A stretch of DNA of 64,000 bases, taken from positions 33,929-97,928 of the forward strand of contig MHGF01000034.1 of assembly GCA_001805445.1 (NCBI GenBank), in the 5' to 3' direction. The notes beneath the pieces are model-generated. The model was given only the letters and a program-made list of their open reading frames with translations, was not told where the DNA came from and searched no databases. The translations under genes and the position numbers were made by a program. This stretch comes from Omnitrophica WOR_2 bacterium GWF2_43_52 (GTDB taxonomy: Bacteria; Omnitrophota; Gorgyraeia; Gygaellales; UBA12090). Of this stretch, positions 1,988-32,999 are shown piece after piece. How positions within the stretch are numbered: position 1 is the stretch's first letter; each line of letters opens with the position of its first letter.

Positions 1988-3076
1988 CTATATCCTCATG
2001 GGCAAGACTATATAAACATAGCCGTTATCGCGGATTACCCCCGGTTTCTCTGAATCTGTAACCTCAAAATTGATACTTTCGTCCTGAAGATTTTTTAACA
2101 CATCGATAAGGTATGACGGATTAAACCCAATGGCTAACTCTTTTCCGGCATATTCCGAAAGCAGTTCCTCTCTTGACTCACCAATATCTGGTGTCGATTT
2201 TGAAATCACCAGTTTATTTTTAAAAACCTCCAATTTTACCGCCTGATAATCAAGCGTTGATAAGATCGCGGCTCGCCGCAGCGCGAGTAAGAATTTTTCG
2301 CGGTCAAGCAATAGTGCTTCTTTCTGCCGCTCAGGAATAACTTGGTGATAATCCGGAAATTCTCCTTCTATAAGGCGGGAAATAACCTGGACTGCTCCTA
2401 AGTCGAACAATGCCTGATTTTCTCCTAAGATAAGTGAAAGATCTCCCTCATCTGACAAGTTGCGGCTTAACTCATGGATTGTCTTGAGAGGAACGATCAT
2501 CTGTATTTTTTTGTTGCCGGATGATTTTAATTTTTTCTCAATTAAGGCCAGTCTTCTGCCATCGGTGGCGACAAGGAGAATTTTATCATTTTCTATTTTA
2601 AAGAGTATGCCGTTTAATACATACCGGGTTTCGTCATGTGATACCGCGAAGCTTGTTTTTCCCACCATCTCCTTTAACAGGCTTTGTTCTATTTTTATAA
2701 CTTCTTTTTCCTTAAATTCCGGAAGCTTCGGAAATTCTTCTTTAGGAAGCCCCATAATTTTAAATTCGCAGGTCTCTGTCTGTATGGTTACCATATTATT
2801 TTTCTTTACCGCGATCACTACCGGCCCGGAAGGTAGCTCATGAATGATTTCCGCGAATCTTTTTGAAGGAACCGTGATTGCGCCGTTTTCCACAACTTCC
2901 ACAGGATATTCACATGATATGCCGATATCCAAATCTGTGGTAATAAGCTTTATTTTTCCATCTGTTGCCTCTAAAAGCATATTTGATAAAATAGGCAGGC
3001 TCACCCGTGGAGTAACTATATTCTGGGTGATTTGAATATGGCTGAATAAGTTTTCTTTAGTGGTTTGAAACTTCAT
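1988..3076 (-). CDS. dnaN: DNA polymerase III beta sliding clamp
   Basis: MKFQTTKENLFSHIQITQNIVTPRVSLPILSNMLLEA... is a typical DnaN N-terminus. The start at MKF (3076) is preferred over the upstream in-frame M at 3094. Confidence 0.9.
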   Translation of the reverse strand: MKFQTTKENLFSHIQITQNIVTPRVSLPILSNMLLEATDGKIKLITTDLDIGISCEYPVEVVENGAITVPSKRFAEIIHELPSGPVVIAVKKNNMVTIQTETCEFKIMGLPKEEFPKLPEFKEKEVIKIEQSLLKEMVGKTSFAVSHDETRYVLNGILFKIENDKILLVATDGRRLALIEKKLKSSGNKKIQMIVPLKTIHELSRNLSDEGDLSLILGENQALFDLGAVQVISRLIEGEFPDYHQVIPERQKEALLLDREKFLLALRRAAILSTLDYQAVKLEVFKNKLVISKSTPDIGESREELLSEYAGKELAIGFNPSYLIDVLKNLQDESINFEVTDSEKPGVIRDNGYVYIVLPMRI

Positions 3077-3242
3077 GAAAGGCTCCTTAACCAAAAGTAC
3101 TATTATTAATAGTTTTTAAATAGAATAAATAGTATTGGTAGTAATGGGGTTTCGCTTCTGTTGAAAAACGTAAGGTTTACCCACACCTATATACAACAAA
3201 ACTGGAAAATTATCAACAAGAATCTTTGTATTAGCTGTGGAT

Positions 3243-4574
3243 TTACTGTTTAAGGAGTTGCATAATTTTTTCAATGTCATGCCTTATTTTTGAGTCTTTT
3301 TCTTTACACGTTTTTATTTTGTTATAGGAATGAAGCACTGTCGTATGGTCCTTGCCGCCAAAAAAACCGCCTATTTCCGGAAAAGAAAAACTGGTCAGCT
3401 CGCGGCAGAAATACATGGCGACCTGGCGCGCCAAAACGATATTTTTATCCCTTTTGCTGCCTTTTAAGTCCTGGAGGCCAAAATGATAAAAATCGCTTAC
3501 CTGCTTTTGAATTAACTCAATGGTAATCGTTTTGGTGTTTTCTTTAAGCTGGTCCTTTAATACCTCTTTTGCTAATGCCAGGGTTATGGGTTTATTTTCT
3601 AAGAGCGAATACGCGAGCACCCGGATTAACGCGCCCTCAAGCTCCCGGATATTGGATTTAAGCGTTTGGGCGATAAAAAAGATAACCTCGTCGGGAATTG
3701 TGGTTGATTCATGCTCAATTTTTTTCTTTAAAATCGCGACTCTGGTTTCAAAATCCGGAGGCTGGACATCGGTAATCAGCCCCCAACCGAAACGCGAAAC
3801 GAGGCGCTCTTCAAGGTTAGATATATCTTTCGGCGTGCGGTCAGAGCAGATAATAATCTGTTTATGGGCGTCATGCAAAGCGTTAAAGGTATGGAAGAAT
3901 TCTTCCTGAGTAGCTTCCTTGCCGGCGATAAAATGGATATCGTCAATTACCAAGACATCAATAGTGCGGTATTTCTGGCGGAAACGGTTGGTTGAATGAT
4001 GTTGGATAGCGTCAATAAGCTCATTGGTGAATTTTTCAGAGGTGATATAGCATATTTTCATGTTTTGGCCTTCACGCTTTAAAATAGCGTGGCAGATTGC
4101 CTGCATCAGGTGCGTTTTGCCTAATCCTACGCCGCCATAAATGAAAAGAGGGTTATATGTCTTTGCGGGAGCTTCGCTCACGGCAATAGCCGCGGCATGT
4201 GAAAAACGGTTAGAAGGGCCAACCACGAAGTTCTCAAAGGTATAGCGCGGATTTAAATTTATAGAAGACGCGTTTTTTTCAGAAGGAGCGCTTTTAACAG
4301 AAGATGAAAGTTCCGCCTTAGGAGCAGGACGGCATAAGACCGAGAATTCAATCTGAATCCCCTTGGGGGTAAATCTGTTTAAGGCGTCTTCGATTAACGA
4401 ACGGTAATGTTTCTTTACCCAGTCTTTGGAAAATTCATCCGGCGCGCCTAAAACCAGAGTGTCAGAATTCGACTCTCTGGCTTCTAATCTATTGATCCAG
4501 GCTTCGCAGGCAGCTTCTCCGATGTTTTTTGAAAGAACCTCTTTTGCCTTTACCCAAGATTCTACAAGACTCAT
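3243..4574 (-). CDS. dnaA: chromosomal replication initiator DnaA
   Basis: MSLVESW... (compare E. coli MSLSLWQQ), Walker A GGVGLGKTHLMQAI, AAA+ and a C-terminal DNA-binding domain. The ORF track extends to a GTG at 4586, but the ATG at 4574 fits DnaA N-termini. Confidence 0.9.
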   Translation of the reverse strand: MSLVESWVKAKEVLSKNIGEAACEAWINRLEARESNSDTLVLGAPDEFSKDWVKKHYRSLIEDALNRFTPKGIQIEFSVLCRPAPKAELSSSVKSAPSEKNASSINLNPRYTFENFVVGPSNRFSHAAAIAVSEAPAKTYNPLFIYGGVGLGKTHLMQAICHAILKREGQNMKICYITSEKFTNELIDAIQHHSTNRFRQKYRTIDVLVIDDIHFIAGKEATQEEFFHTFNALHDAHKQIIICSDRTPKDISNLEERLVSRFGWGLITDVQPPDFETRVAILKKKIEHESTTIPDEVIFFIAQTLKSNIRELEGALIRVLAYSLLENKPITLALAKEVLKDQLKENTKTITIELIQKQVSDFYHFGLQDLKGSKRDKNIVLARQVAMYFCRELTSFSFPEIGGFFGGKDHTTVLHSYNKIKTCKEKDSKIRHDIEKIMQLLKQ

Positions 4575-4578
4575 GGTT

Positions 4579-4607
4579 TTTTCCACAGTATCAACAGTTT
4601 ATCCACA
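4579..4607. promoter_or_regulatory. DnaA box pair (TTTTCCACA and perfect TTATCCACA) immediately upstream of dnaA
   Basis: ttttccaca at 4579-4587 and ttatccaca at 4599-4607, read directly from the sequence. Consistent with dnaA autoregulation or part of oriC. Confidence 0.5.
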
Positions 4608-4937
4608 GAAACAAAAGACAAAAATTCTCGCTTTTCCCTAATGGCATAAGAATGTAAAGCACTAGGCTTTATTGTGTACGCAATCGTGAATAGATGGCTA
4701 TAGAGAATAAAACAATTAGGGAATTAGAGTTGCGGGATTAAATACTCTCTTCTCGAACTCCTCAACGTCGCACCCAGGAATTAAGCTTTTCGTATAACCG
4801 GAAAATAATTATAGCAGGAATAGAAACCATTGCAAGTAAAAAATTAATGGTTCTATGAGAAAAAGAGGCTAGATAGAAAAATGGCTTGTTGTTTGTCTGG
4901 AACGTCTTTACTTGCAAATTCCTGAAGGTATGTACTC

Positions 4938-5241: not shown

Positions 5242-5913
5242 TTATTCGTTGGAAAACGTGTACGCGGTTAAATGCAGGACGATTGCTTGGAGGGGGACAA
5301 TTTCTTTTTTACGTTCAATAGCGATATGTTCAATGGTAATCATTCTTTCCAGGGTATGGATTTTTTGCAATAGCGCAAGCAGTTGAGCATAGGTACCGTT
5401 AAACGTCATTTCAAAACGCAAAGGCTTTAAGGTTTGCGCAGTTGCCTGGTACGAGACCGTTTGCGTTTCTTGGCTAACCATGGTGTCACCTGTTTCTTCG
5501 TCAGCCATCGGTGCCCCCTGGGTTTCAATTCCGAAAGTATTCTCTGCGAGGCTCTCTTCTTTGACGCGAAAACCTGCTTTTTGCAGCCCTAAGGTATCAG
5601 CTATGGTAGTGAGGGTTTTGATGAGGCTAAAAGGGTGTTTTTCATCAAGAGGAACCTGTTTAAGTATCGCCGCTTCTTTTTCGGTTAAGTCCTGGGCCTG
5701 GCGTTCTAATTTTTTTAAATGTTTACTGGTTTTTTGAGCCCTGGCAAGTTCCACCTTTTTTTCAACAAGGGTTTTTTTTAAGCCTATACTTGTTGTCGTC
5801 TGCCACAGGCAGATGGCTACGAGGCCAAGAAGCACTATTACCAGCAGCGTATTTTTGATAAACTGCTTTTTGTCTTTTATTTCTAACTTAAGAGAAATGT
5901 TTGTGTCAAACAC
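5242..5913 (-). CDS. pilO: type IV pilus assembly protein PilO-like (single TM, coiled coil, C-terminal domain)
   Basis: TM segment TLLVIVLLGLVAICLW followed by a coiled coil. Lies directly downstream of the pilM-pilN fusion. Confidence 0.55.
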   Translation of the reverse strand: MFDTNISLKLEIKDKKQFIKNTLLVIVLLGLVAICLWQTTTSIGLKKTLVEKKVELARAQKTSKHLKKLERQAQDLTEKEAAILKQVPLDEKHPFSLIKTLTTIADTLGLQKAGFRVKEESLAENTFGIETQGAPMADEETGDTMVSQETQTVSYQATAQTLKPLRFEMTFNGTYAQLLALLQKIHTLERMITIEHIAIERKKEIVPLQAIVLHLTAYTFSNE

Positions 5914-8974: not shown

Positions 8975-9415
8975 TTATTGTTCTCTCCAGCTCCAGGCTG
9001 CTTGAATATCGTTTGCAGTATCAATATTAGGAGTCTCGATGTTGGTAATTTGTAGGCTAATTTGTCTTTCGGCTATCGGGTTAGCCGCGGCATCTAAAGT
9101 CTGTCCTGCCGAAATAATGTTCCTATTGACGCCACCAAGAGTATTTACAGTATAGCCATATCTTCCACTGCCAAAGTTTTGCCATGGTGAGTTAAAAGGG
9201 AACAGGCCTCCGGGATTATTCCTGATCCAAATTTTAGCCTCTTCAATTCCAGCCTGCGCCAAATACAAGGCAATCAGCCCGTCCCTGTCAGATGAGCGGG
9301 TGCGTAGCTCCGATTCCCACATTGAAGCAAGCCCTGAGCCTAAAATAGCAAAGACAGCTGTAACAAAGAGGATAAAAATCATGGCCTGGCTTTTTACATT
9401 GCTAAATTGTTTCAT
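8975..9415 (-). CDS. PilX-like minor pilin / pseudopilin (N-terminal hydrophobic segment without canonical G|FTLIE)
   Basis: MKQFSNVKSQAMIFILFVTAVFAILGSG... Its N-terminal region is paralogous to that of the 31488..32597 product. Confidence 0.45.
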   Translation of the reverse strand: MKQFSNVKSQAMIFILFVTAVFAILGSGLASMWESELRTRSSDRDGLIALYLAQAGIEEAKIWIRNNPGGLFPFNSPWQNFGSGRYGYTVNTLGGVNRNIISAGQTLDAAANPIAERQISLQITNIETPNIDTANDIQAAWSWREQ

Positions 9416-9425
9416 TGTTAAATTG

Positions 9426-9797
9426 CTACACAGTTAACCGATCATTAGTAAATTTAATCAAGGAGTTGACTTCTTTAGGTAATCTCTCTAGTTCGCCAGA
9501 GATATGCAGATATTCGTTGTTTCCCAGCAATTTTCTTTTATTTGCTTTTTCCGCCCAATCCACGCTTTCCTCTATTGAACCATAACTGTAGCGATAGAAA
9601 TTAATCTTATCCTTCTTAAAATATCTCCCAAAACCTTCCGCGATATTAGCTGAGATAGAATCGACTGCTTTAACCAGTTGTCTACCCACGGTATCTTTAG
9701 CAAAATAATCCCATTTAATCACTATTCTCCAGATATAATTAGATAAATCAAAAGCAATTCTATAGGAACTCAAGTCTTTTAGCCCCAGATATTTCAT
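9426..9797 (-). CDS. four-helix-bundle protein (TIGR02436 / 23S rRNA IVS protein / Avd-like family)
   Basis: ...RQLVKAVDSISANIAEGFGRYFKKDKINFYRYSYGSIEES... carries the S(I/V).ANIAEG and GS..E signatures of the family; 123 aa. Confidence 0.7.
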   Translation of the reverse strand: MKYLGLKDLSSYRIAFDLSNYIWRIVIKWDYFAKDTVGRQLVKAVDSISANIAEGFGRYFKKDKINFYRYSYGSIEESVDWAEKANKRKLLGNNEYLHISGELERLPKEVNSLIKFTNDRLTV

Positions 9798-9827
9798 AAC
9801 AATTTAACCTTTTGACAATTTAGCAAT

Positions 9828-10418
9828 TTAATTCCTCGGCCTCACCTGCGTGCGCAGGGTGTAATCGCGGTTTTCCCTGCCGATCGGCAGCGTTGGTTGT
9901 GGGCGGACGGTGAGCTCAATAGTATACAATCCTCCTCCGGCATCGGTAAAAAGGGCGTTGCCGCTGGGATTAGGAAGGACAATAAAATTTGCTAATTCTT
10001 CCCAAGCGCTCCAGGCGCTCCAAAGAGGCCCCGGAGGGCCGGTTCTGGTTCTTTGTCTCCTTTGTATCTGCGCAGTCGCCCCTGCGGGCCTTCGAAATTG
10101 TACCTGAATATCTCCAATATCAACGTCATTGTCACCGTCAGAATCTCTGCCGAGCTGTATGCCGTTACCTACGAGGATAATCTGAGTTTGTGCCCATGCA
10201 GGAGCAGCGCTTACAGTGGCGTGTCTTACCTCGTTTGCCATAAATTCCATTGCCCAACGGGCATTCTGGACTAAATCAAGGGTGTTTCTTTGTTTGCGCC
10301 AGGCCTGTTGTACGGAGGAAAATATGCCGCTGGCTCCCGCCATAACCAATCCAAGGACGGCAATGGCGACTAATACTTCAAGTAAGGTAAAACCCTTTTC
10401 ATTGCTACATTGTTTCAT
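9828..10418 (-). CDS. type IV prepilin-like minor pilin
   Basis: MKQCSNEKG|FTLLEVLVAIAVLGLV is a class III signal with Glu at +5; 196 aa. Confidence 0.75.
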   Translation of the reverse strand: MKQCSNEKGFTLLEVLVAIAVLGLVMAGASGIFSSVQQAWRKQRNTLDLVQNARWAMEFMANEVRHATVSAAPAWAQTQIILVGNGIQLGRDSDGDNDVDIGDIQVQFRRPAGATAQIQRRQRTRTGPPGPLWSAWSAWEELANFIVLPNPSGNALFTDAGGGLYTIELTVRPQPTLPIGRENRDYTLRTQVRPRN

Positions 10419-10458
10419 GGCTAAATTGCTAAGCCTGTTAACAGTTTGACCGTTTGTT

Positions 10459-10902
10459 TTAATAATTCGCCTTTAAGGTTGATACGGAGATATTCCTTGC
10501 AATACTCCCATCTGTCCAATCAACAGTGGTATTTAGTAATTTTAGCTGCGCAGGGCTTATCGGGCCATCAGAAATTGTTAACGTAGGAGTATAGATAATA
10601 TTGTTAAGCGTAACTGCAGGGCGTCCGTTTACCTGGTTGGTTACTATACCATCAAGCCCATCTAACTGGTCAAGGCTTGTCCAATCCGAATACTGTTCCA
10701 GAACCGCTCGGGCTAAATTATAGGCAATAGTTTGCTGTTGGGTTTTTCTCGCGGCTTTGGCGCCTGCGGCAAACACACTAACCACAGTCCCTGCTACTAA
10801 TCCCAGAACAGCAATGGCAATGGCGACTTCAATGAGGCTGAAGCCCTTTATAACCATCTTTCTTTTTTTTAGCAGACCTGTGGCTAGTTGATATTGTTTC
10901 AT
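10459..10902 (-). CDS. type IV prepilin-like protein
   Basis: ...VIKG|FSLIEVAIAIAVLGLVAG. Long leader if it starts at MKQ; the alternative start MVIKG gives a 5-aa leader. Confidence 0.7.
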   Translation of the reverse strand: MKQYQLATGLLKKRKMVIKGFSLIEVAIAIAVLGLVAGTVVSVFAAGAKAARKTQQQTIAYNLARAVLEQYSDWTSLDQLDGLDGIVTNQVNGRPAVTLNNIIYTPTLTISDGPISPAQLKLLNTTVDWTDGSIARNISVSTLKANY

Positions 10903-10954
10903 GGTTAAAATGCTATAAGCAATTTAGCAATTGAGCAGTTTGACAGTTTAAGGC

Positions 10955-11479
10955 TTATTGTACCCTCACATAGCCGGTGTTGTTAAAAACCTGCACAGTT
11001 CTGGTTTTGCCTTGGGCGTTGAGCGTAATGGTTGTGGTGCCAGCGCTTGAGGCGTTTCCTTGAGGAAAAAGAAAAGAGAATTGCGTCAAAGGGAGTACTG
11101 ATACTAAATCAATTCCTGCGCTTAATGTTCGCCGTTTTATTTCTTCATTGGCATCAGGCGCGCTATTCGCGTTTAGATCGTCGTAAATGGCATAGCTTTC
11201 GCTTGAGGTATCAAAAACCACAATCTGATTTCGGTGTTTAGCTACTGCCATCTGGCGCATCCAGCAGAGGTCAGCGGCAATTGACCGGGCATCAAGCGTA
11301 AGCCTGTTTCCAGTAAGAGAAGAAAATGAAACCATGCTTAAGGCGCTGAGTGTGGCGATAATGGCAATGACAACCATGAGCTCTATTAGGGTAAACCCCG
11401 TTGGAAACCCTATCTTCTTTGCGGGTCGCCCTGTAGTTTCGAACGGGGTAAAGCTGGTTATATAGTTACATTGTTTCAT
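10955..11479 (-). CDS. type IV prepilin-like protein (long leader)
   Basis: ...GFPTG|FTLIELMVVIAIIATL; 174 aa. Confidence 0.7.
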   Translation of the reverse strand: MKQCNYITSFTPFETTGRPAKKIGFPTGFTLIELMVVIAIIATLSALSMVSFSSLTGNRLTLDARSIAADLCWMRQMAVAKHRNQIVVFDTSSESYAIYDDLNANSAPDANEEIKRRTLSAGIDLVSVLPLTQFSFLFPQGNASSAGTTTITLNAQGKTRTVQVFNNTGYVRVQ

Positions 11480-11508
11480 GGCTACATTGTTAAAACAAAA
11501 GCACCTTT

Positions 11509-11557
11509 AAAAAATTATTTTAAAAAATCCCTCCCTCTAAATACAGAGAGGGAGGGA
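11509..11557 (-). terminator. rho-independent terminator downstream of pilA
   Basis: Minus-strand RNA: ccctccctct-ctgtattt-agagggaggg, followed by auuuuuuaaaauaauuuuuu. Confidence 0.6.
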
Positions 11558-11576
11558 TAAAAAGTAAGGAAAACTT

Positions 11577-12158
11577 TTAATTTGTCGGGCCATCACGGGA
11601 GACTAATATGTTTATGTTGGCGGCAAGACCTCCTGCGTATCTCATCCAGCCAGCGGTACCGGTTTGGGCTTTGTCTATGTCCATATCCAGTTTATTGCGG
11701 TCTGGAAGAGTCATAGTATTTCCGGCAACCGGCGCTACTATAGTTAAATATCTTTCTCCAGAAGTAGCGCAGGCGTTACAAAATAAATTGGTAGCAGGCG
11801 GGGGTAACGTCCCTGTTCTGACCCAGTTATACGTTCCTCCCCACGGCGTAAGAGTTGGCCACCTTTCAAGATACGGGCCATCCCAGTTACCTAGCACAGC
11901 AGGCGGAGTTATGAAACCACCTACAGCGGTAGCGCACGCGTTGCCAATACAGGATGGCGGCCAGCTTCCCATATCAGAAAAATAAGCATTAGCGGCTGTC
12001 TTTACCGTGTTATAAAAGGATTCAGCATTAGAAATCCTGCCTTTTGCAATCTGCCTAAATACCTGCGGCGCAGCTACTGCCGCTAACACGGCAATGATGG
12101 CAATAACCACCATTAATTCAATTAAGGTAAAACCAAGTTTCTTTTTTAGAAACAACAT
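11577..12158 (-). CDS. pilA: major type IVa pilin PilA-like
   Basis: MLFLKKKLG|FTLIELMVVIAIIAVLAAVAAPQ with a short leader; 193 aa. It is the only pilin gene in this block whose own terminator was recognised. Confidence 0.8.
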   Translation of the reverse strand: MLFLKKKLGFTLIELMVVIAIIAVLAAVAAPQVFRQIAKGRISNAESFYNTVKTAANAYFSDMGSWPPSCIGNACATAVGGFITPPAVLGNWDGPYLERWPTLTPWGGTYNWVRTGTLPPPATNLFCNACATSGERYLTIVAPVAGNTMTLPDRNKLDMDIDKAQTGTAGWMRYAGGLAANINILVSRDGPTN

Positions 12159-20018: not shown

Positions 20019-21251
20019 CTAGCCTCCTCCTTTCATTACCGAAATCATTTCCCAGAGCGGCAGGAATATCGCAAGGCACATGGTCATAACAACGATACCG
20101 AGCGTCGCGGTCATAATCGGCTCAATCAAACCGGTGAGGCCTTTAACCGCGGCTTTGACTTCCAGGCTAAAATACTCGCATACCGAATCAAGCATCGTTG
20201 GTAACGATCCGCTTCTTTCGCCGACGGAAATCATGAATCCGACGATGCGGGGGAAATATTTGCTGCTAAGTACCGCCGTGGAAATGCCTTTCCCGTCAGC
20301 CAGGGCCTGTTTCATTGTGGCAATTTCCTGGGATAAGACCACATTACCGATAGTCAGGCCGACGATATCCATGGTTTTGAGTACCGGCAGGCCCGCTTGG
20401 TAAAGGACGCTCAGCATTGAAGTGAAACGCTGCATCGTAATTTTGGTGTAAATTTCACCGATCAGGGGAGTTTTAAATTTAAGGCCGTCCCACCAAAACC
20501 GGCCTTTTTTGGTATTGATATGATGGTTGAACATAAAGAAGCCGCCGATACAGGAAGGGATAAGAAGATACCAATAGTGCTTCATAATGGTGCTGATAAG
20601 GATCATAATCTGGGTCGGCAGGGGAAGTTTCATCTTAGCGTCAATATAAATTTTAGCAAACTGCGGAACGACAAAAATAGAAAGGACAAATACCGCTATC
20701 ACCAAGGCAATCATAACCATAATGGGATAACGCATCGCCTCATTGATTTTGGCGCGGGTTTCAAAATCATCTTCAAGCATACGCGAAAGCTTGGCAAGGA
20801 CGGTTTCCAGGACGCCCGCGCTTTCTCCGGCGACAATGGTATTGACGTAAAGTTCGTTAAAGACATTAGGATGGCGCATCATTGCCTGGGAAAGGCTAAT
20901 GCCGCCTTTGACTTCGTTGACAATATTTTGGAGCGCCTGTTTTAAGGCAATGTCCTCGGTTTGCTCGGATAATACCGTCAGCCCGTCGACGATAGGAATG
21001 CCGGCCTTGATAATGGTTGAGAATTGGCGGGAAAATATAATAATTGATTGGGTGCTTGCTTTCCCCGCCTTTTTTACCGCTGTTTCGGAAACCTGCTTGG
21101 TTTTTACGGTTTTAAAGCTTATGCTTATACTGATAGGCATGTACCCTATCTTGGCAAGATGGGTGGTTACTTCCATTTCGTTGGCAGCTTCTAATTCGCC
21201 TTTTACCAGTTTACCGCCTGCGTCTGCCGCTTTATAAAGGTAGAGGGGCAT
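20019..21251 (-). CDS. PilC/GspF/MshG-family platform protein (second copy)
   Basis: Two T2SS-F repeats, 410 aa; paralog of the 7764..8972 product. Confidence 0.85.
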   Translation of the reverse strand: MPLYLYKAADAGGKLVKGELEAANEMEVTTHLAKIGYMPISISISFKTVKTKQVSETAVKKAGKASTQSIIIFSRQFSTIIKAGIPIVDGLTVLSEQTEDIALKQALQNIVNEVKGGISLSQAMMRHPNVFNELYVNTIVAGESAGVLETVLAKLSRMLEDDFETRAKINEAMRYPIMVMIALVIAVFVLSIFVVPQFAKIYIDAKMKLPLPTQIMILISTIMKHYWYLLIPSCIGGFFMFNHHINTKKGRFWWDGLKFKTPLIGEIYTKITMQRFTSMLSVLYQAGLPVLKTMDIVGLTIGNVVLSQEIATMKQALADGKGISTAVLSSKYFPRIVGFMISVGERSGSLPTMLDSVCEYFSLEVKAAVKGLTGLIEPIMTATLGIVVMTMCLAIFLPLWEMISVMKGGG

Positions 21252-21315
21252 GTATAGTGTGTAAGTTTATAAGTGTAAAGTGAGTAAGTATATAGGTATA
21301 AAGTGTGTGCATTTT

Positions 21316-31487: not shown

Positions 31488-32597
31488 TTATTGTTCCTGC
31501 CAGGTTGTTGACGAGAAATTCCCGGAAATGCCCATGCCGGTAGTGTCTACATACCTATCGGCATATTTAAGTTCAATATTGCCTCTGAGGTAAATAGCGG
31601 CTCCCATCAGGCCGCCTTCATTGTGTATACAATTAAAATCTATCGTTCCGTATTGCGTATAAATCAGGCCAGTAAAGTCGCGGCTTGAAGAAAGGTCCCC
31701 ATCTGGCGCAGAAGAAATAATGTTTCCGTTTTGTGTAGCCAAATTCGGAAAAGTTTCCGGCCCACCTTGTTTATTATGGGCAGAGATACTCATTTTTCCA
31801 ATTCCAATAATGGTAATGTTTCCTTCGGCAACGATACTTGTTTTTGAAAAAGTGATTTTATTGTTTCGATTAGTGCCGGTATCAATAGTGACATTTCCCG
31901 TAACGTAATAAAATTTGTTGTTATAACTGTTCTCTGCAAAAGTAGAAGAGCCGTTAGTGTAGTTGCATTGATTGCCGCAGGTTTTAGCATAATCTTCAAA
32001 ATACGTCATATTAATCGCGGGGATGCTGGTTGGCCCGACAATAGCAGTTGCATTTGAAGGCGGAGGAAAGGTCCAATCTTCGTCTTCATTGATCGTTGCA
32101 TCACTATCATCCCCTTCAAAATTTGGCGAGGCGATAGTTCCGTTGACGCTTATAGAATAACCGCTGGTATTATTCCAGTCAAACCTGTCTCCTCCTGCCG
32201 CGACGTTACTAAAGCCTCCCTGGGTAAGCGTAAGGTTTACCTGCCGCAGCGCGCGGTAGTTTGCCTGAGAAGGAACGTAACCTGTTGTAATAACAGTGAG
32301 TGCGTTGCCTGAGGAGGTGCAGTTACAGGCGTATTGCCCTGGCCCAAATGTGTGAGTTACATTGGTAATATTCGTGCAGTTAAAATTCCGGGAGAGTTGG
32401 TTTTGCGCCCATTGCGCTCCGGCCTCGGCTATATTGAGTGCTTGTTCAGAATTAAGGGTACGCAGGTTTATTTCAAAATCGCCGGACTCAAGATTGAGTA
32501 ATGCCCAGCCCAGAATGCTAAAAACCAGCATCGCGAAGATGACGATGATCAGGGCGGCCGCTTTATTATTACCGTGTATATTGCTAAATTGATTCAT
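31488..32597 (-). CDS. PilX-like minor pilin, Asn-rich with many N-x-S/T sequons
   Basis: MNQFSNIHGNNKAAALIIVIFAMLVFSILGWALL is paralogous to the N-terminus of the 8975..9415 product. About 15 NxS/T sequons in 369 aa. Confidence 0.45.
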   Translation of the reverse strand: MNQFSNIHGNNKAAALIIVIFAMLVFSILGWALLNLESGDFEINLRTLNSEQALNIAEAGAQWAQNQLSRNFNCTNITNVTHTFGPGQYACNCTSSGNALTVITTGYVPSQANYRALRQVNLTLTQGGFSNVAAGGDRFDWNNTSGYSISVNGTIASPNFEGDDSDATINEDEDWTFPPPSNATAIVGPTSIPAINMTYFEDYAKTCGNQCNYTNGSSTFAENSYNNKFYYVTGNVTIDTGTNRNNKITFSKTSIVAEGNITIIGIGKMSISAHNKQGGPETFPNLATQNGNIISSAPDGDLSSSRDFTGLIYTQYGTIDFNCIHNEGGLMGAAIYLRGNIELKYADRYVDTTGMGISGNFSSTTWQEQ

Positions 32598-32639
32598 TGT
32601 TAAATTGTTAAACGATCATTGGTAAATCTAATAACCTTA

Positions 32640-32745
32640 ATTAATTGTTTGCCCACAGTATCCTTGGCAAAATAATTCCATTTAAGCATAGTTTCCCGCA
32701 TATAATTTGATAAATTAAAAGCAATTATATGCGTACGTATATCTT
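32640..32745 (-). pseudogene. truncated remnant (N-terminal ~35 codons) of a four-helix-bundle gene paralogous to 9426..9797
   Basis: Nucleotide collinearity between 32640-32745 and 9690-9800 (ttgtttgcccacagtatccttggcaaaataattccattt.. versus ttgtctacccacggtatctttagcaaaataatcccattt..). Minus-frame translation ..LKDIRTHIIAFNLSNYMRETMLKWNYFAKDTVGKQLIK, then a stop. Confidence 0.5.
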
Positions 32746-32999
32746 TTAACTCCAGCAGTTTAGCAATTTAACCATGTAACAATTTAATTCCATCACTTTA
32801 ACTCCAGCAGTTTAACAATGTAGCCATGTAACAATTTAATTCCGTCACTTTAACTCCAGCAGTTTAACAATGTAGCCATGTAACAATTTAATTCCGTCAC
32901 TTTAACTCCAACAGTTTAACAATGTAACCATGTAACAATTTAATTCCGTCACTTTAACTCCAGCAGTTTAACAATGTAGCCATTTAACAATTTAATTAA
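32741..32999. repeat. tandem array, 5 copies of a 52-53-bp unit carrying the pilin 5' motif
   Basis: Unit ctttaactccagcagtttaacaatgtagccatgtaacaatttaattccgtca starts at 32745, 32798, 32850, 32902 and 32954. It contains catggctacattgttaaa (minus strand), identical to the start-codon region of the 10955..11479 gene. Confidence 0.8.

What the first reader, a model, noticed from the sequence alone, without database searches (positions are those of the whole stretch)
8975..11500. Pilin and pseudopilin genes share a conserved ~40-bp 5' module that spans the start codon (MKQxSN leader)
At least five minus-strand genes begin ATG AAA/AAT CAA T(G/T)T AGC AAT and encode MKQCSN, MKQFSN, MNQFSN, MKQCNY or MKQYQL. 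They start at 9415, 10418, 10902, 11479 and 32597. Each is preceded by closely related upstream sequence, for example ggcttagcaatttagccATG, ctgtgtagcaatttaacaATG, ttaacaatgtagccATG, gtttaacaatttaacaATG. The module contains direct repeats of AACAAT/ATTGTT spaced about 16 bp apart, and the string ttagcaat recurs both upstream and inside codons 4-6. Conservation that runs across the promoter, RBS and first six codons of otherwise divergent pilins suggests a shared cis-regulatory or translational-control element. It could also be a recombination substrate for cassette exchange.
Basis: seen in the sequence. Interest (0 to 1): 0.55.

Follow-up and report, generated by a model that had tools for sequence, protein, structure and literature searches.

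The report
Hairpin repeat element supplies pilin starts
The sequence shared at the start of five pilus genes is one arm of a hairpin-forming repeat element, found in several bacterial phyla and often carrying a small four-helix-bundle gene, that has settled between the genes and now supplies their start codons and first six amino acids.

Summary
Five minus-strand genes (starts 9415, 10418, 10902, 11479, 32597) share a ~35-nt module from about -16 to +19 around the ATG. The 23-nt core has 10 matches against 0 expected.

It is not a pilin signal peptide or a pilin-specific operator. It is an array of 8-nt units (NTARCAAT). The same array occurs inverted and non-coding in the window. Inverted pairs enclose an intact PF05635 four-helix-bundle gene (9426..9797) and a deleted copy of it (about 32600..32755), which is preceded by a 52-bp tandem repeat.

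Of 80 metagenomic relatives of that gene (62-81% identity), 70 have both arms. Nearly all lie between two co-directional genes. The arrays also occur without the gene in Bacteroidota, Patescibacteria, Omnitrophota and other groups.

Three orthologous operons have an empty pilW/pilX junction with a different pilX start. A fourth carries two 94%-identical, ORF-deleted copies at two junctions, each encoding MKQFNNVKG.

The architecture matches the 23S rRNA intervening sequence (ORF in a stem-loop, tandem short repeats, ORF deletions), but it sits in mRNA operons. RNase III processing, an effect on translation and the way the element spreads are inferred, not shown. I found no published description.

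The parts
9391..9438 (-). Right (3') arm of element 1: an array of 8-nt units (TGTAGCAA TTTAACAA TGAAACAA TTTAGCAA). It contains the pilX-like start codon (9415-9413) and codons 1-7 (MKQFSNV), and also the TAG stop of the four-helix-bundle gene.
   Evidence: Inverted repeat 9394-9428 / 9797-9831: 35 nt, 80% complementary, 368 nt apart. In the MFE fold the AUG lies in a 6-nt internal loop between two helices of the closing stem.
9426..9797 (-). Intact four-helix-bundle gene (123 aa; PF05635 23S_rRNA_IVP, TIGR02436). It fills the loop of element 1.
   Evidence: Pfam E 1.8e-20, 73.6 bits against a cutoff of 33.8. TIGR02436 E 8.8e-22. 65-66% identical to the arm-flanked genes in L060 and L047.
9795..9834 (+). 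Left (5') arm of element 1. It reads as an array on the + strand. On the mRNA strand it is AATTAAATTGCTAAATTGTCAAAAGGTTAAATTGTTATG. It starts at the TAA stop of the pilW-like gene and ends at the ATG of the four-helix-bundle gene.
   Evidence: Long-range stem present in both the MFE and centroid structures, z = -1.96.
10402..10433 (-). Solo right-arm module that provides the start (10418) and the leader MKQCSNEKG of a prepilin-type gene (G|FTLLE).
   Evidence: N_methyl domain. No local hairpin, z = 0.02.
10893..10954 (.). Decayed element at the GspH-like / pseudopilin junction. A left-arm-type array lies at 10915-10954 (reads on +) and a right-arm module at 10893-10915 (-) carrying the start at 10902 (MKQYQL).
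   Evidence: The fold is weak, z = 0.8. The orthologous junctions in L224 and L132 hold better-preserved copies.
11455..11494 (-). Solo right-arm module that provides the start (11479) and MKQCNY of the GspH-like pseudopilin. It lies just downstream of the major-pilin terminator.
   Evidence: Its sequence TTAACAATGTAGCCATGAAACAAT matches the + strand unit of the 52-bp repeat except for ATGAAA against ATGTAA.
32573..32612 (-). Right arm of element 2. It carries the start (32597) and MNQFSN of the 369-aa PilX-like gene.
   Evidence: Inverted repeat 32585-32613 / 32758-32786: 29 nt, 86% complementary. Closing stem in the MFE and centroid structures, z = -1.86, with the AUG paired to CAU.
32600..32755 (-). 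Internally deleted remnant of a four-helix-bundle gene (LELKDIRTHIIAFNLSNY...KVI / RFTNDRLTI*). About 230 bp are missing and the start codon is lost.
   Evidence: Aligned with the intact orthologue in L134, which has the same flanks (PRNL* upstream, MKQFNNEKGVALIIVIFAMM downstream).
32745..32997 (+). 52-bp tandem repeat, 4.9 copies, 95% matches. Each unit is a left arm plus the first codons of the four-helix-bundle gene. On the + strand it reads TTTAACAATGTAGCCATGTAACAATTTAAT, which is the pilin-start module in non-coding, inverted orientation.
   Evidence: TRF. The copy number is 3, 4 or 5 in other assemblies of the same species. Assembly collapse is not excluded.

Best explanation
The shared 5' module is the right-hand arm of a palindromic repeat element. 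Each arm is a tandem array of 8-nt units: NTARCAAT on one side and its complement ATTGYTAN on the other.

In its full form the two arms close a stem around a PF05635 four-helix-bundle gene. This is the layout of the ORF-bearing intervening sequence of 23S rRNA, but here it is inserted in the sense orientation between genes of an mRNA operon. Copies that have lost the ORF, and solo arms, persist.

Such elements have colonised the junctions of the two minor-pilin operons in this Omnitrophota genome. The right arm contains ATG (from CAATG) every 8 nt, so in all three reading frames. Where an insertion removed or displaced the original start, the downstream gene now initiates inside the arm. The start unit has ATGAAA or ATGAAT instead of the start-stop ATGTAA seen in non-coding copies. 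As a result the first 6-7 codons (MKQ[F/C/Y][S/N]N) are encoded by the element. A short basic leader ending in Gly is all a prepilin needs, so pilin genes tolerate this well.

Shown: the anatomy; the gene-arm association; presence or absence at orthologous junctions; replacement of the ancestral pilX start; duplication of a deleted copy within one operon.

Inferred: the operon transcript forms the arm-arm stem; the stem is cut by RNase III as in rRNA intervening sequences; this uncouples or tunes expression of the flanking genes; the four-helix-bundle protein (a pentameric, RNA-binding fold in Avd) recognises the arms. How the element spreads is unknown.

The confidence of 0.8 applies to the identity of the module and to start-codon capture. 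I put the RNA-processing step at about 0.35.
For: Anatomy in the window:
- 11 arrays against 0.07 expected, all inside the two minor-pilin clusters and on both strands.
- Arms of 35 nt (80% complementary) and 29 nt (86% complementary) enclose the intact and the deleted PF05635 gene.
- Both enclosed regions fold with a long-range closing stem in the MFE and centroid structures, z about -1.9.

Association seen from the gene side:
- 343 metagenomic relatives were found. Of the best 80 distinct loci (62-81% identity), 72 have a left arm, 77 a right arm and 70 both.
- 67 of 69 have a co-directional ORF ending a median 63 nt upstream. 67 of 71 have a co-directional ORF starting within 260 nt downstream.
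- Cognate arms pair better than non-cognate arms: -36.1 against -29.6 kcal/mol, p = 3e-7; shuffled arms give -21.4.

Spread:
- The 23-nt module occurs in at least 120 loci of species-representative genomes from Bacteroidota, Patescibacteria, Gammaproteobacteria MAGs, Ignavibacteria and others. Most are hairpin pairs without the gene.
- Arm-flanked genes of 65-66% identity lie in a Falkowbacteria MAG (L060) and a Gammaproteobacteria-labelled MAG (L047).

The N-terminal tag is encoded by the element:
- 51 of 60 occurrences of the ATGAAACAATTTARYAAT-type motif in all fetched loci open ORFs of at least 60 codons. These belong to pilins and to unrelated enzymes.

Gain and loss:
- Orthologous operons L130, L223 and L225 have an empty pilW/pilX junction.
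- In L223 the junction reads AGGAATTAAAAGTGCGCTTACACACTAAAAAAAGCCAGGCCATG. The window shares AGGAATTAA and AAAAAGCCAGGCCATG, with the element in between.
- L131 and L132 carry hairpin arrays at their junctions, z from -6 to -7.6 in L132.
- L224 carries two ~117-bp ORF-deleted copies, 94% identical with unrelated flanks, each supplying MKQFNNVKG.

Precedent:
- The Coxiella 23S intervening sequence has the S23p ORF in a stem-loop cut by RNase III, 2-4 tandem heptamers before the ORF, and a 176-bp ORF deletion in one strain (PMC4990558).
- Avd is a pentameric, S23-like barrel, and that paper's methods screen DGRs for putative Avd-binding RNA stem-loops (bioRxiv 10.1101/2023.10.23.563531).
Against: - There are no expression, cleavage or binding data. 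The RNA role is inferred from folding alone, and the z-scores for the two gene-containing elements are modest (about -1.9).
- The three solo modules (10418, 10902, 11479) form no significant local hairpin.
- No transposase, clear target-site duplication or other mobility signature was found.
- Only 3 of 195 arrays in the genome sample keep a recognisable trace of the four-helix-bundle gene. Most arrays may therefore be an independent repeat class that the gene merely inhabits.
- Arm complementarity is imperfect (77-86%) and is not always compensated. A population SNP at 9823 breaks a pair.
- The architecture is not universal in PF05635. A Pseudanabaena plasmid member (31.6% identity) has no arms.
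Confidence: 0.8

Rival explanations
1. The module is a conserved prepilin leader (signal peptide) inherited by paralogous pilin genes. The upstream similarity would be a shared ribosome-binding region.
For: Three of the five genes are prepilin-type with G|F(T/S)L(I/L)E directly after the leader. MKQxxN(E/V)KG is a plausible leader. Similar leaders occur on pseudopilins in L132, L171, L179 and L224.
Against: - The same 23 nt occur on the opposite strand in non-coding DNA (five copies in the 52-bp repeat, plus 9795-9834).
- Two of the five genes are PilX-like and have no prepilin cleavage motif.
- The same DNA and peptide head unrelated cytoplasmic enzymes in other phyla.
- Orthologues in L130, L223 and L225 have different leaders and no module.
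- The module contains no Shine-Dalgarno sequence, although the major pilin has AGGAGG.
Confidence: 0.03
2. The arrays are operator or translational-control sites dedicated to minor-pilin expression, bound by a regulator encoded nearby.
For: In this 64-kb window all 11 arrays lie in the two minor-pilin clusters. Arrays recur at the same operon's junctions in L131, L132 and L224. About 10 of 71 gene-containing elements precede pilin-like genes. In L131 the hairpin encloses the Shine-Dalgarno sequence and the GTG start.
Against: The arrays are widespread next to unrelated genes and in phyla where the neighbouring genes are not pilins. They are absent from three orthologous operons. Promoter-like sites are not enriched. 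No regulator is linked to them.
Confidence: 0.08
3. The arrays are slipped-strand (contingency) repeats. Gain or loss of 8-nt units shifts the frame between the in-array ATG and the gene, switching minor pilins on and off.
For: The 8-nt unit is not a multiple of 3. ATGs lie inside the arrays. Long perfect arrays (up to 28 units) exist in other genomes. The copy number of the 52-bp repeat differs among assemblies.
Against: The units at the pilin starts are heterogeneous and number only 3-4. No length variation was seen at any gene-start array among 9 (cluster 1) and 10 (cluster 2) independent assemblies of the species. The variable 52-bp repeat lies upstream of the start and does not affect the reading frame.
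Confidence: 0.05
4. The arrays mainly serve as homology tracts for recombination that moves leaders or cassettes between pilin genes (cassette exchange).
For: L224 has two 94%-identical copies, including the leader-coding part, at two junctions with unrelated flanks. Both paralogous clusters in the window carry an element at the same relative site, after the PRN(L)* stop of the pilW-like gene.
Against: The two element copies in the window are only about 62-75% identical and have different closest relatives. The pilin bodies are not shuffled between clusters. Duplication of the element explains the L224 case equally well.
Confidence: 0.12

Closest known systems
ORF-containing intervening sequences (IVS) of 23S rRNA (Coxiella burnetii, Leptospira, Xanthomonas/Brucella; S23p = PF05635)
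   Same: - The same protein family sits in the loop of a long stem made by terminal inverted repeats.
- Short tandem repeats lie next to the ORF start (heptamers GACAGAT x2-4 in Coxiella, octamers here) and vary in copy number.
- The ORF has a poor or absent Shine-Dalgarno sequence and decays by internal deletion.
- The ORF is in the sense orientation relative to host transcription.
- Distribution is sporadic and looks horizontally spread (PMC4990558).
   Different: - These elements sit between protein-coding genes of mRNA operons. There is no rRNA in the window.
- The arms are long multi-unit arrays that also exist in large numbers without the ORF.
- The right arm donates start codons and N-terminal residues to the downstream gene.
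- RNase III excision is demonstrated for the rRNA intervening sequences and only inferred here.
Miniature palindromic intergenic repeats (MITE/REP-like: Neisseria Correia/NEMIS, ERIC, REP/BIME). The comparison is from my own knowledge.
   Same: They are short, hairpin-forming, multi-copy and sit in intergenic regions inside operons. They are co-transcribed. Some are known RNase III substrates or mRNA stabilisers. They can create or alter gene 5' ends. ORF-less copies outnumber any coding copies.
   Different: The arms here are tandem 8-nt arrays of variable length, not a fixed consensus. The coding form carries a four-helix-bundle gene, not a transposase. No clear target-site duplication was seen. 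Closely similar arrays are shared across phyla.
Avd, the accessory variability determinant of diversity-generating retroelements
   Same: It has a homologous four-helix-bundle fold forming a pentameric, positively charged barrel described as similar to S23 proteins. The paper's methods screen DGRs for putative Avd-binding RNA stem-loops downstream of the template repeat. DGR surveys note that PF05635 resembles Avd.
   Different: No reverse transcriptase or template/variable repeat pair lies near any of the elements examined. The gene is embedded in its own hairpin between housekeeping or pilus genes.
Integron gene cassettes with attC sites (comparison from my own knowledge)
   Same: They are small promoterless cassettes bounded by imperfect inverted repeats, inserted co-directionally and dependent on read-through transcription.
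   Different: No integrase or attI was seen. The repeats flank both sides and are tandem octamers. The pilin genes are in canonical operon order shared with relatives that lack the repeats.

Membership tests
PF05635 / TIGR02436 four-helix-bundle protein (23S rRNA IVS protein, S23p) | Full-length match to the family profile above the curated cutoff | tested here: met
   Pfam 73.6 bits against a cutoff of 33.8, covering profile positions 1-105 of 106. TIGR02436 77.4 bits against a cutoff of 24. No solved structure is detectable by sequence alone.
23S rRNA intervening sequence (IVS) | Inserted in a 23S (or 16S) rRNA helix | tested here: not met
   No Rfam family reaches its gathering score anywhere in the window. 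The element lies between a pilW-like and a pilX-like gene.
23S rRNA intervening sequence (IVS) | ORF enclosed in a stem formed by terminal inverted repeats | tested here: met
   Arms of 35 nt (80% complementary) and 29 nt (86% complementary). The closing stem is present in both MFE and centroid folds. 70 of 80 relatives have both arms.
23S rRNA intervening sequence (IVS) | Excision of the stem-loop from the transcript by RNase III | not testable with these tools
   This needs transcript end-mapping or an in vitro cleavage assay.
MITE-like non-autonomous mobile element | Terminal inverted repeats, several copies per genome, and present/absent at orthologous sites | tested here: met
   Inverted arms. 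11 arrays in the window. Two 94%-identical copies in L224. Empty junctions in L130, L223 and L225 against filled junctions in the window and L224.
MITE-like non-autonomous mobile element | Target-site duplication and a cognate transposase-encoding parent element | tested here: inconclusive
   No transposase is associated; the only cargo is the four-helix-bundle gene. The filled-versus-empty comparison shows that about 19 nt of ancestral sequence was replaced, with no clear duplication. The compared species are too diverged (67-72% GspF identity) to be sure.
Prepilin-type leader (type IV pilin / pseudopilin N-terminus) | Short leader ending in Gly, followed by F/M-x-x-x-E and a hydrophobic helix (N_methyl motif) | tested here: met
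   N_methyl hits for the genes starting at 10418, 10902 and 11479. The motif is not met for 9415 and 32597, which are PilX-like (PilX_N 23.9 bits, just under the cutoff; no hit for the 369-aa protein).
Slipped-strand phase-variation repeat | Repeat-number polymorphism within the population that changes frame or spacing | tested here: not met
   No length variation at the gene-start arrays in 9 and 10 assemblies. Only the upstream 52-bp repeat varies, and that may be assembly collapse.

The most novel reading that the evidence does not exclude
The octamer-array hairpins and their PF05635 gene would form a previously unrecognised class of operon-dwelling genetic element, in effect an 'intervening sequence for mRNAs'.
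- It spreads between junctions and between phyla without a conventional transposase.
- It is removed or neutralised at the RNA level through its own stem, with the pentameric four-helix-bundle protein recognising the repeated units.
- It rewrites the 5' ends of host genes by donating stop codons on one side and start codons plus ready-made N-terminal leaders, including complete prepilin leaders, on the other.
Probability: 0.3. Interest if true: 0.8.

Novelty: new variant of a known kind. Interest (0 to 1): 0.62.

Why it matters
If this is right, a protein family known for thirty years only as the unexplained ORF of rRNA intervening sequences (and, distantly, as Avd) has a much commoner habitat. 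That habitat is hairpin cassettes inside ordinary operons, in Omnitrophota, candidate-phyla-radiation bacteria and Bacteroidota.

- It gives a concrete, testable model for what these proteins act on, namely their own repeat arms.
- It explains a recurrent array-encoded N-terminal tag (MKQFNN / MKQFSN) that gene callers report on unrelated proteins. Annotators should know these residues come from a repeat.
- It shows a way in which selfish repeats create new translation starts and leader peptides.
- For pilus biology specifically, the minor-pilin leaders in this lineage are recent, repeat-derived and interchangeable.

Tried and rejected
- Rfam, at permissive thresholds on both loci and at gathering thresholds on the whole window: nothing relevant.
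- Literature search for the repeat strings: no hits. Searches for PF05635, TIGR02436 and S23p found only the rRNA intervening-sequence, CPR rRNA-insertion and DGR papers.
- Local hairpins at the three solo modules: not significant.
- Sigma-70-like promoters in the arrays: not enriched.
- Slippage polymorphism at the gene-start arrays: none.
- 'An in-array ATG opens a long ORF' against random windows: 13.2% against 10.6%. The control was uninformative because random windows fall inside genes, so I replaced it with the motif-specific count.
- Traces of the four-helix-bundle C-terminus next to arrays in the genome sample: only 3 of 195. Most arrays therefore cannot be shown to derive from gene-containing copies.
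- Generalising the arms to all of PF05635: two other subfamilies have arms made of different units (L065 with a 43-nt inverted repeat; L012 with only an 11-nt perfect one), but a Pseudanabaena plasmid member has none. In L025, which carries the L065 subfamily, the repeat finder reported no flanking inverted repeat.
- DNA for the two closest orthologous operons (81% and 75% GspF identity) could not be fetched. Their gene maps show no four-helix-bundle gene.
- An integron attC reading was considered and dropped: the operon order is canonical and the repeats flank both sides.
Full report
**Observation.**
Pfam identifies 10418, 10902 and 11479 as prepilin-type (N_methyl; GspH for 11479). 9415 is PilX_N-like, and 32597 has the same N-terminal layout but no Pfam hit. 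An alignment of 80 nt around each start shows a conserved core from about -16 to +19. The major-pilin and GspF starts do not share it.

The similarity is far above chance and is not confined to the coding part.
- The pattern of 13 upstream nt plus ATG has 12 matches against 0.01 expected.
- The 23-nt core has 10 matches against 0 expected.
- Arrays of four or more 8-bp-phased units number 11 against 0.07 expected.

**What the module is made of.**
It is a tandem array of 8-nt units with consensus NTARCAAT, for example TGTAGCAA TTTAACAA TGAAACAA TTTAGCAA. TRF reports period 8, or 16 where unit variants alternate. The same array also occurs on the other strand in non-coding DNA: at 9795-9834, at 10915-10954, and five times inside a 52-bp tandem repeat at 32745-32997. 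Copies at gene starts read ATGAAA or ATGAAT. The non-coding copies read ATGTAA (start-stop) or ATTTAA.

**What the arrays enclose.**
The ORF at 9426..9797 is a PF05635 / TIGR02436 four-helix-bundle protein, the family first described from the ORF of 23S rRNA intervening sequences. It is bounded exactly by inverted arrays.
- The left arm starts at the TAA of the upstream pilW-like gene and ends at the gene's own ATG.
- The gene's TAG stop is the first unit of the right arm, which then carries the pilX-like ATG.
- The arms are 9394-9428 and 9797-9831: 35 nt, 80% complementary, 368 nt apart.

Upstream of 32597 lies an internally deleted copy of the same gene between arms 32585-32613 and 32758-32786 (29 nt, 86% complementary). 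There the left arm plus the first codons has been tandemly multiplied, which produced the 52-bp repeat.

Folded as RNA, both regions close with the arm-arm stem in the MFE and centroid structures (z = -1.96 and -1.86). In the first, the pilX AUG sits in a 6-nt internal loop between two helices. In the second, the AUG is paired. The three other modules are solo or decayed arms with no significant local fold.

**Is the gene-arm association general?**
An alignment of the window protein with two relatives was used to scan metagenome contigs. It found 343 relatives. Among the best 80 distinct loci (62-81% identity):
- 72 have a left arm, 77 a right arm and 70 both;
- 67 of 69 have a co-directional ORF ending a median 63 nt upstream;
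- 67 of 71 have a co-directional ORF starting within 260 nt downstream.

The cassette therefore lives inside operons in the sense orientation. Cognate arms pair better than non-cognate arms: -36.1 against -29.6 kcal/mol, p = 3e-7, with shuffled arms at -21.4. The downstream genes are diverse (SdhB-like, HlyD-like, Fmt, ArgG, KsgA and others). About ten are pseudopilin or PilX-like genes whose leaders are array-encoded, for example MKQFNNFLQRG|FSLVE and MKHFNNISSG|FTLVE. L134 is the orthologue of the window's second locus and still has an intact gene.

**Are the arrays wider than the gene?**
Yes. The hosts are Bacteroidota (including cultured Chryseobacterium), Patescibacteria, Gammaproteobacteria-labelled MAGs, Ignavibacteria, Nitrospinota and others. 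Arrays have 3-28 units, and very often an inverted array lies a few nt away, giving hairpins such as L127 with z = -9.3.

Only three of those loci keep the four-helix-bundle gene or its C-terminus (L060 Falkowbacteria, L047, L089 Bacteroidetes). In L060 and L047 the gene lies exactly between the arms. In L089, which is cut at the contig start, only the right arm can be seen.

Two other PF05635 subfamilies in the sample show the same layout with different repeat units:
- Chryseobacterium L065: a 43-nt inverted repeat of GGTTGCAGGT-type units.
- L012: a much weaker case, with only an 11-nt perfect inverted repeat (GCACGTCAACA) reported, within CAACAGCA-type repeats.

L025 carries the L065 subfamily with an internally deleted gene. 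Repeats of the L065 type are visible by eye on both sides, but the repeat finder reported no flanking inverted repeat there. A cyanobacterial plasmid member has no arms, so the layout is common but not universal.

**The N-terminal tag is repeat-encoded.**
In all fetched loci, 51 of 60 occurrences of the ATGAAACAATTTARYAAT-type motif open ORFs of at least 60 codons. These include unrelated cytoplasmic enzymes in other phyla, such as MKQFNNSITVSAPGKLML... and MKQFSNILYIDTRD.... Other in-array ATGs likewise head PurA-like (MKQSLIVVGLQWGDEGKG...) and SerB-like (MKQLTYYIIDFDSTF...) proteins. MKQFxN is therefore not a pilin signal.

**Gain and loss in the same operon.**
The organism is an Omnitrophota bacterium (names attached to the hits). 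The window locus is found in GCA_001806055.1, GCA_003451255.1 and many groundwater assemblies. Orthologous operons were fetched using GspF as anchor.
- L130 (70%), L223 (72%) and L225 (68%) have an empty pilW/pilX junction and different pilX starts.
- L223 reads ...AGGAATTAAAAGTGCGCTTACACACTAAAAAAAGCCAGGCCATG. The window reads ...AGGAATTAA[element]...CAATGTAAAAAGCCAGGCCATG.
- The element therefore replaced the ancestral GTG start region, and the gene now starts at the in-arm ATG.
- L131 and L132 carry arrays or full hairpins at several junctions, with leaders MKQFNNVKG, MKPFNNIKG and MTIKQYNNIRRRG.
- L224 (69%) carries two ~117-bp copies of an ORF-deleted element: left arm, then MKKYLELK (the first eight codons of the four-helix-bundle gene), then the right arm encoding MKQFNNVKG. 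The copies are 94% identical, have unrelated flanks, and sit at two junctions of one operon.

The L224 case is the clearest sign that deleted derivatives persist and duplicate.

Within the species, the gene-start arrays show no length polymorphism. The 52-bp repeat has 3, 4 or 5 arm copies in different assemblies, which could be real or could be assembly collapse.

**Comparison with what is known.**
The Coxiella 23S intervening sequence has the homologous S23p ORF in the loop of a stem cut by RNase III. It has two to four tandem heptamers just before the ORF, with strain-variable number, a weak ribosome-binding site, and a 176-bp ORF deletion in one strain. It has long been suspected to be a remnant of a mobile element (PMC4990558). 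PF05635 ORFs also occur in rRNA insertions of candidate-phyla-radiation bacteria. Avd of diversity-generating retroelements is a pentameric, positively charged barrel described as similar to S23 proteins, and the cited preprint's methods screen DGRs for putative Avd-binding RNA stem-loops.

The element here has the same architecture but fails the defining location test for an rRNA intervening sequence. There is no rRNA in the window, and it lies between protein-coding genes. I found no description of the octamer arrays or of operon-resident, arm-flanked PF05635 cassettes. The literature available to me is limited to open-access papers and preprints.

**Mechanism.**
Shown: the anatomy, the association, start-codon capture and turnover.

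Inferred:
- The operon transcript forms the arm-arm stem.
- The stem is an RNase III substrate, as in rRNA.
- Cleavage or unfolding frees the downstream AUG, which in the stem is either looped out or paired.
- The four-helix-bundle protein recognises the repeated units.

I put about 0.8 on the module being an arm of this element family with element-encoded starts, and about 0.35 on the RNA-processing mechanism. The means of spread is unknown.

**Verdict.**
The interpretation as a pilin-specific regulatory module is not supported. The idea of a shared cis element or cassette is partly supported.

Noticed in passing
window 4578-4608, next to dnaA (3243..4586, minus) and dnaN (1988..3094, minus): Three tandem copies of TTTATCCACAG, which contains the DnaA-box consensus TTATCCACA, lie just upstream of dnaA. 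Pilus cluster 1 therefore probably sits next to the replication origin. The same pilMNO-dnaA-dnaN-gyrB synteny is seen in relatives, where gyrB carries an intein.
   Followed up: partly
window 32745-32997; loci L213-L222: The 52-bp tandem repeat has 5 arm copies in the window and four other assemblies, 4 copies in four assemblies and 3 in two. The spacing between the upstream stop and the ATG is 404, 352 or 300 nt. This is either real population variation or short-read assembly collapse.
   Followed up: partly
window 11527-11558 (minus): A strong intrinsic terminator (12-bp stem with 7 G-C pairs, then a T run) follows the major pilin gene (11577..12158). The minor-pilin genes that start in the repeat modules are therefore probably a separate, read-through or re-initiated transcription unit.
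   Followed up: no
contig of P0004; L224 1301-2101: Other small selfish-looking cassettes occupy the same operon in relatives. A DUF4258 gene plus an 82-aa gene lies between two minor pilins. A nucleotidyltransferase/HepT-like fusion lies between the ATPase and the major pilin.
   Followed up: no
window 21251-21308; L223 about 2820-2880; L131 about 5490-5527 and 3095-3150: Unrelated short tandem repeats also sit at operon junctions. The window has 23-bp units TGTAAAGTGTGTAAGTATATAAG (2.5 copies), L223 has GTGTAAG-type repeats before gspF, and L131 has GTCATG-type and CAGTG-type repeats. Junction repeats may be a general habit of these genomes.
   Followed up: no
L065 1797-2282; L012 4576-4985; L025 6480-6880: Other PF05635 subfamilies are flanked by inverted repeats built from different short units. 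L065 has GGTTGCAGGT-type units in a 43-nt inverted repeat (77% complementary). L012 has CAACAGCA-type repeats but only an 11-nt perfect inverted repeat. This suggests protein and repeat may co-vary. L025, of the L065 subfamily, has an internally deleted gene like the window remnant, but the repeat finder reported no flanking inverted repeat there.
   Followed up: partly
L226 (Pseudanabaena sp. PCC 7367 plasmid NC_019690.1, 43488-43868): An annotated four-helix-bundle protein (31.6% identical), located between a ParA-adjacent hypothetical gene and dcm, has no flanking inverted arrays. The hairpin architecture is therefore not universal in the family.
   Followed up: yes
arrays in general, e.g. 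L021, L025, L047: The canonical unit GTAACAAT gives ATGTAA (a start codon directly followed by a stop) every 8 nt, and TAA in all three frames on both arms. Any reading frame that enters an arm is closed within 24 nt, and any frame can restart in the right arm.
   Followed up: partly
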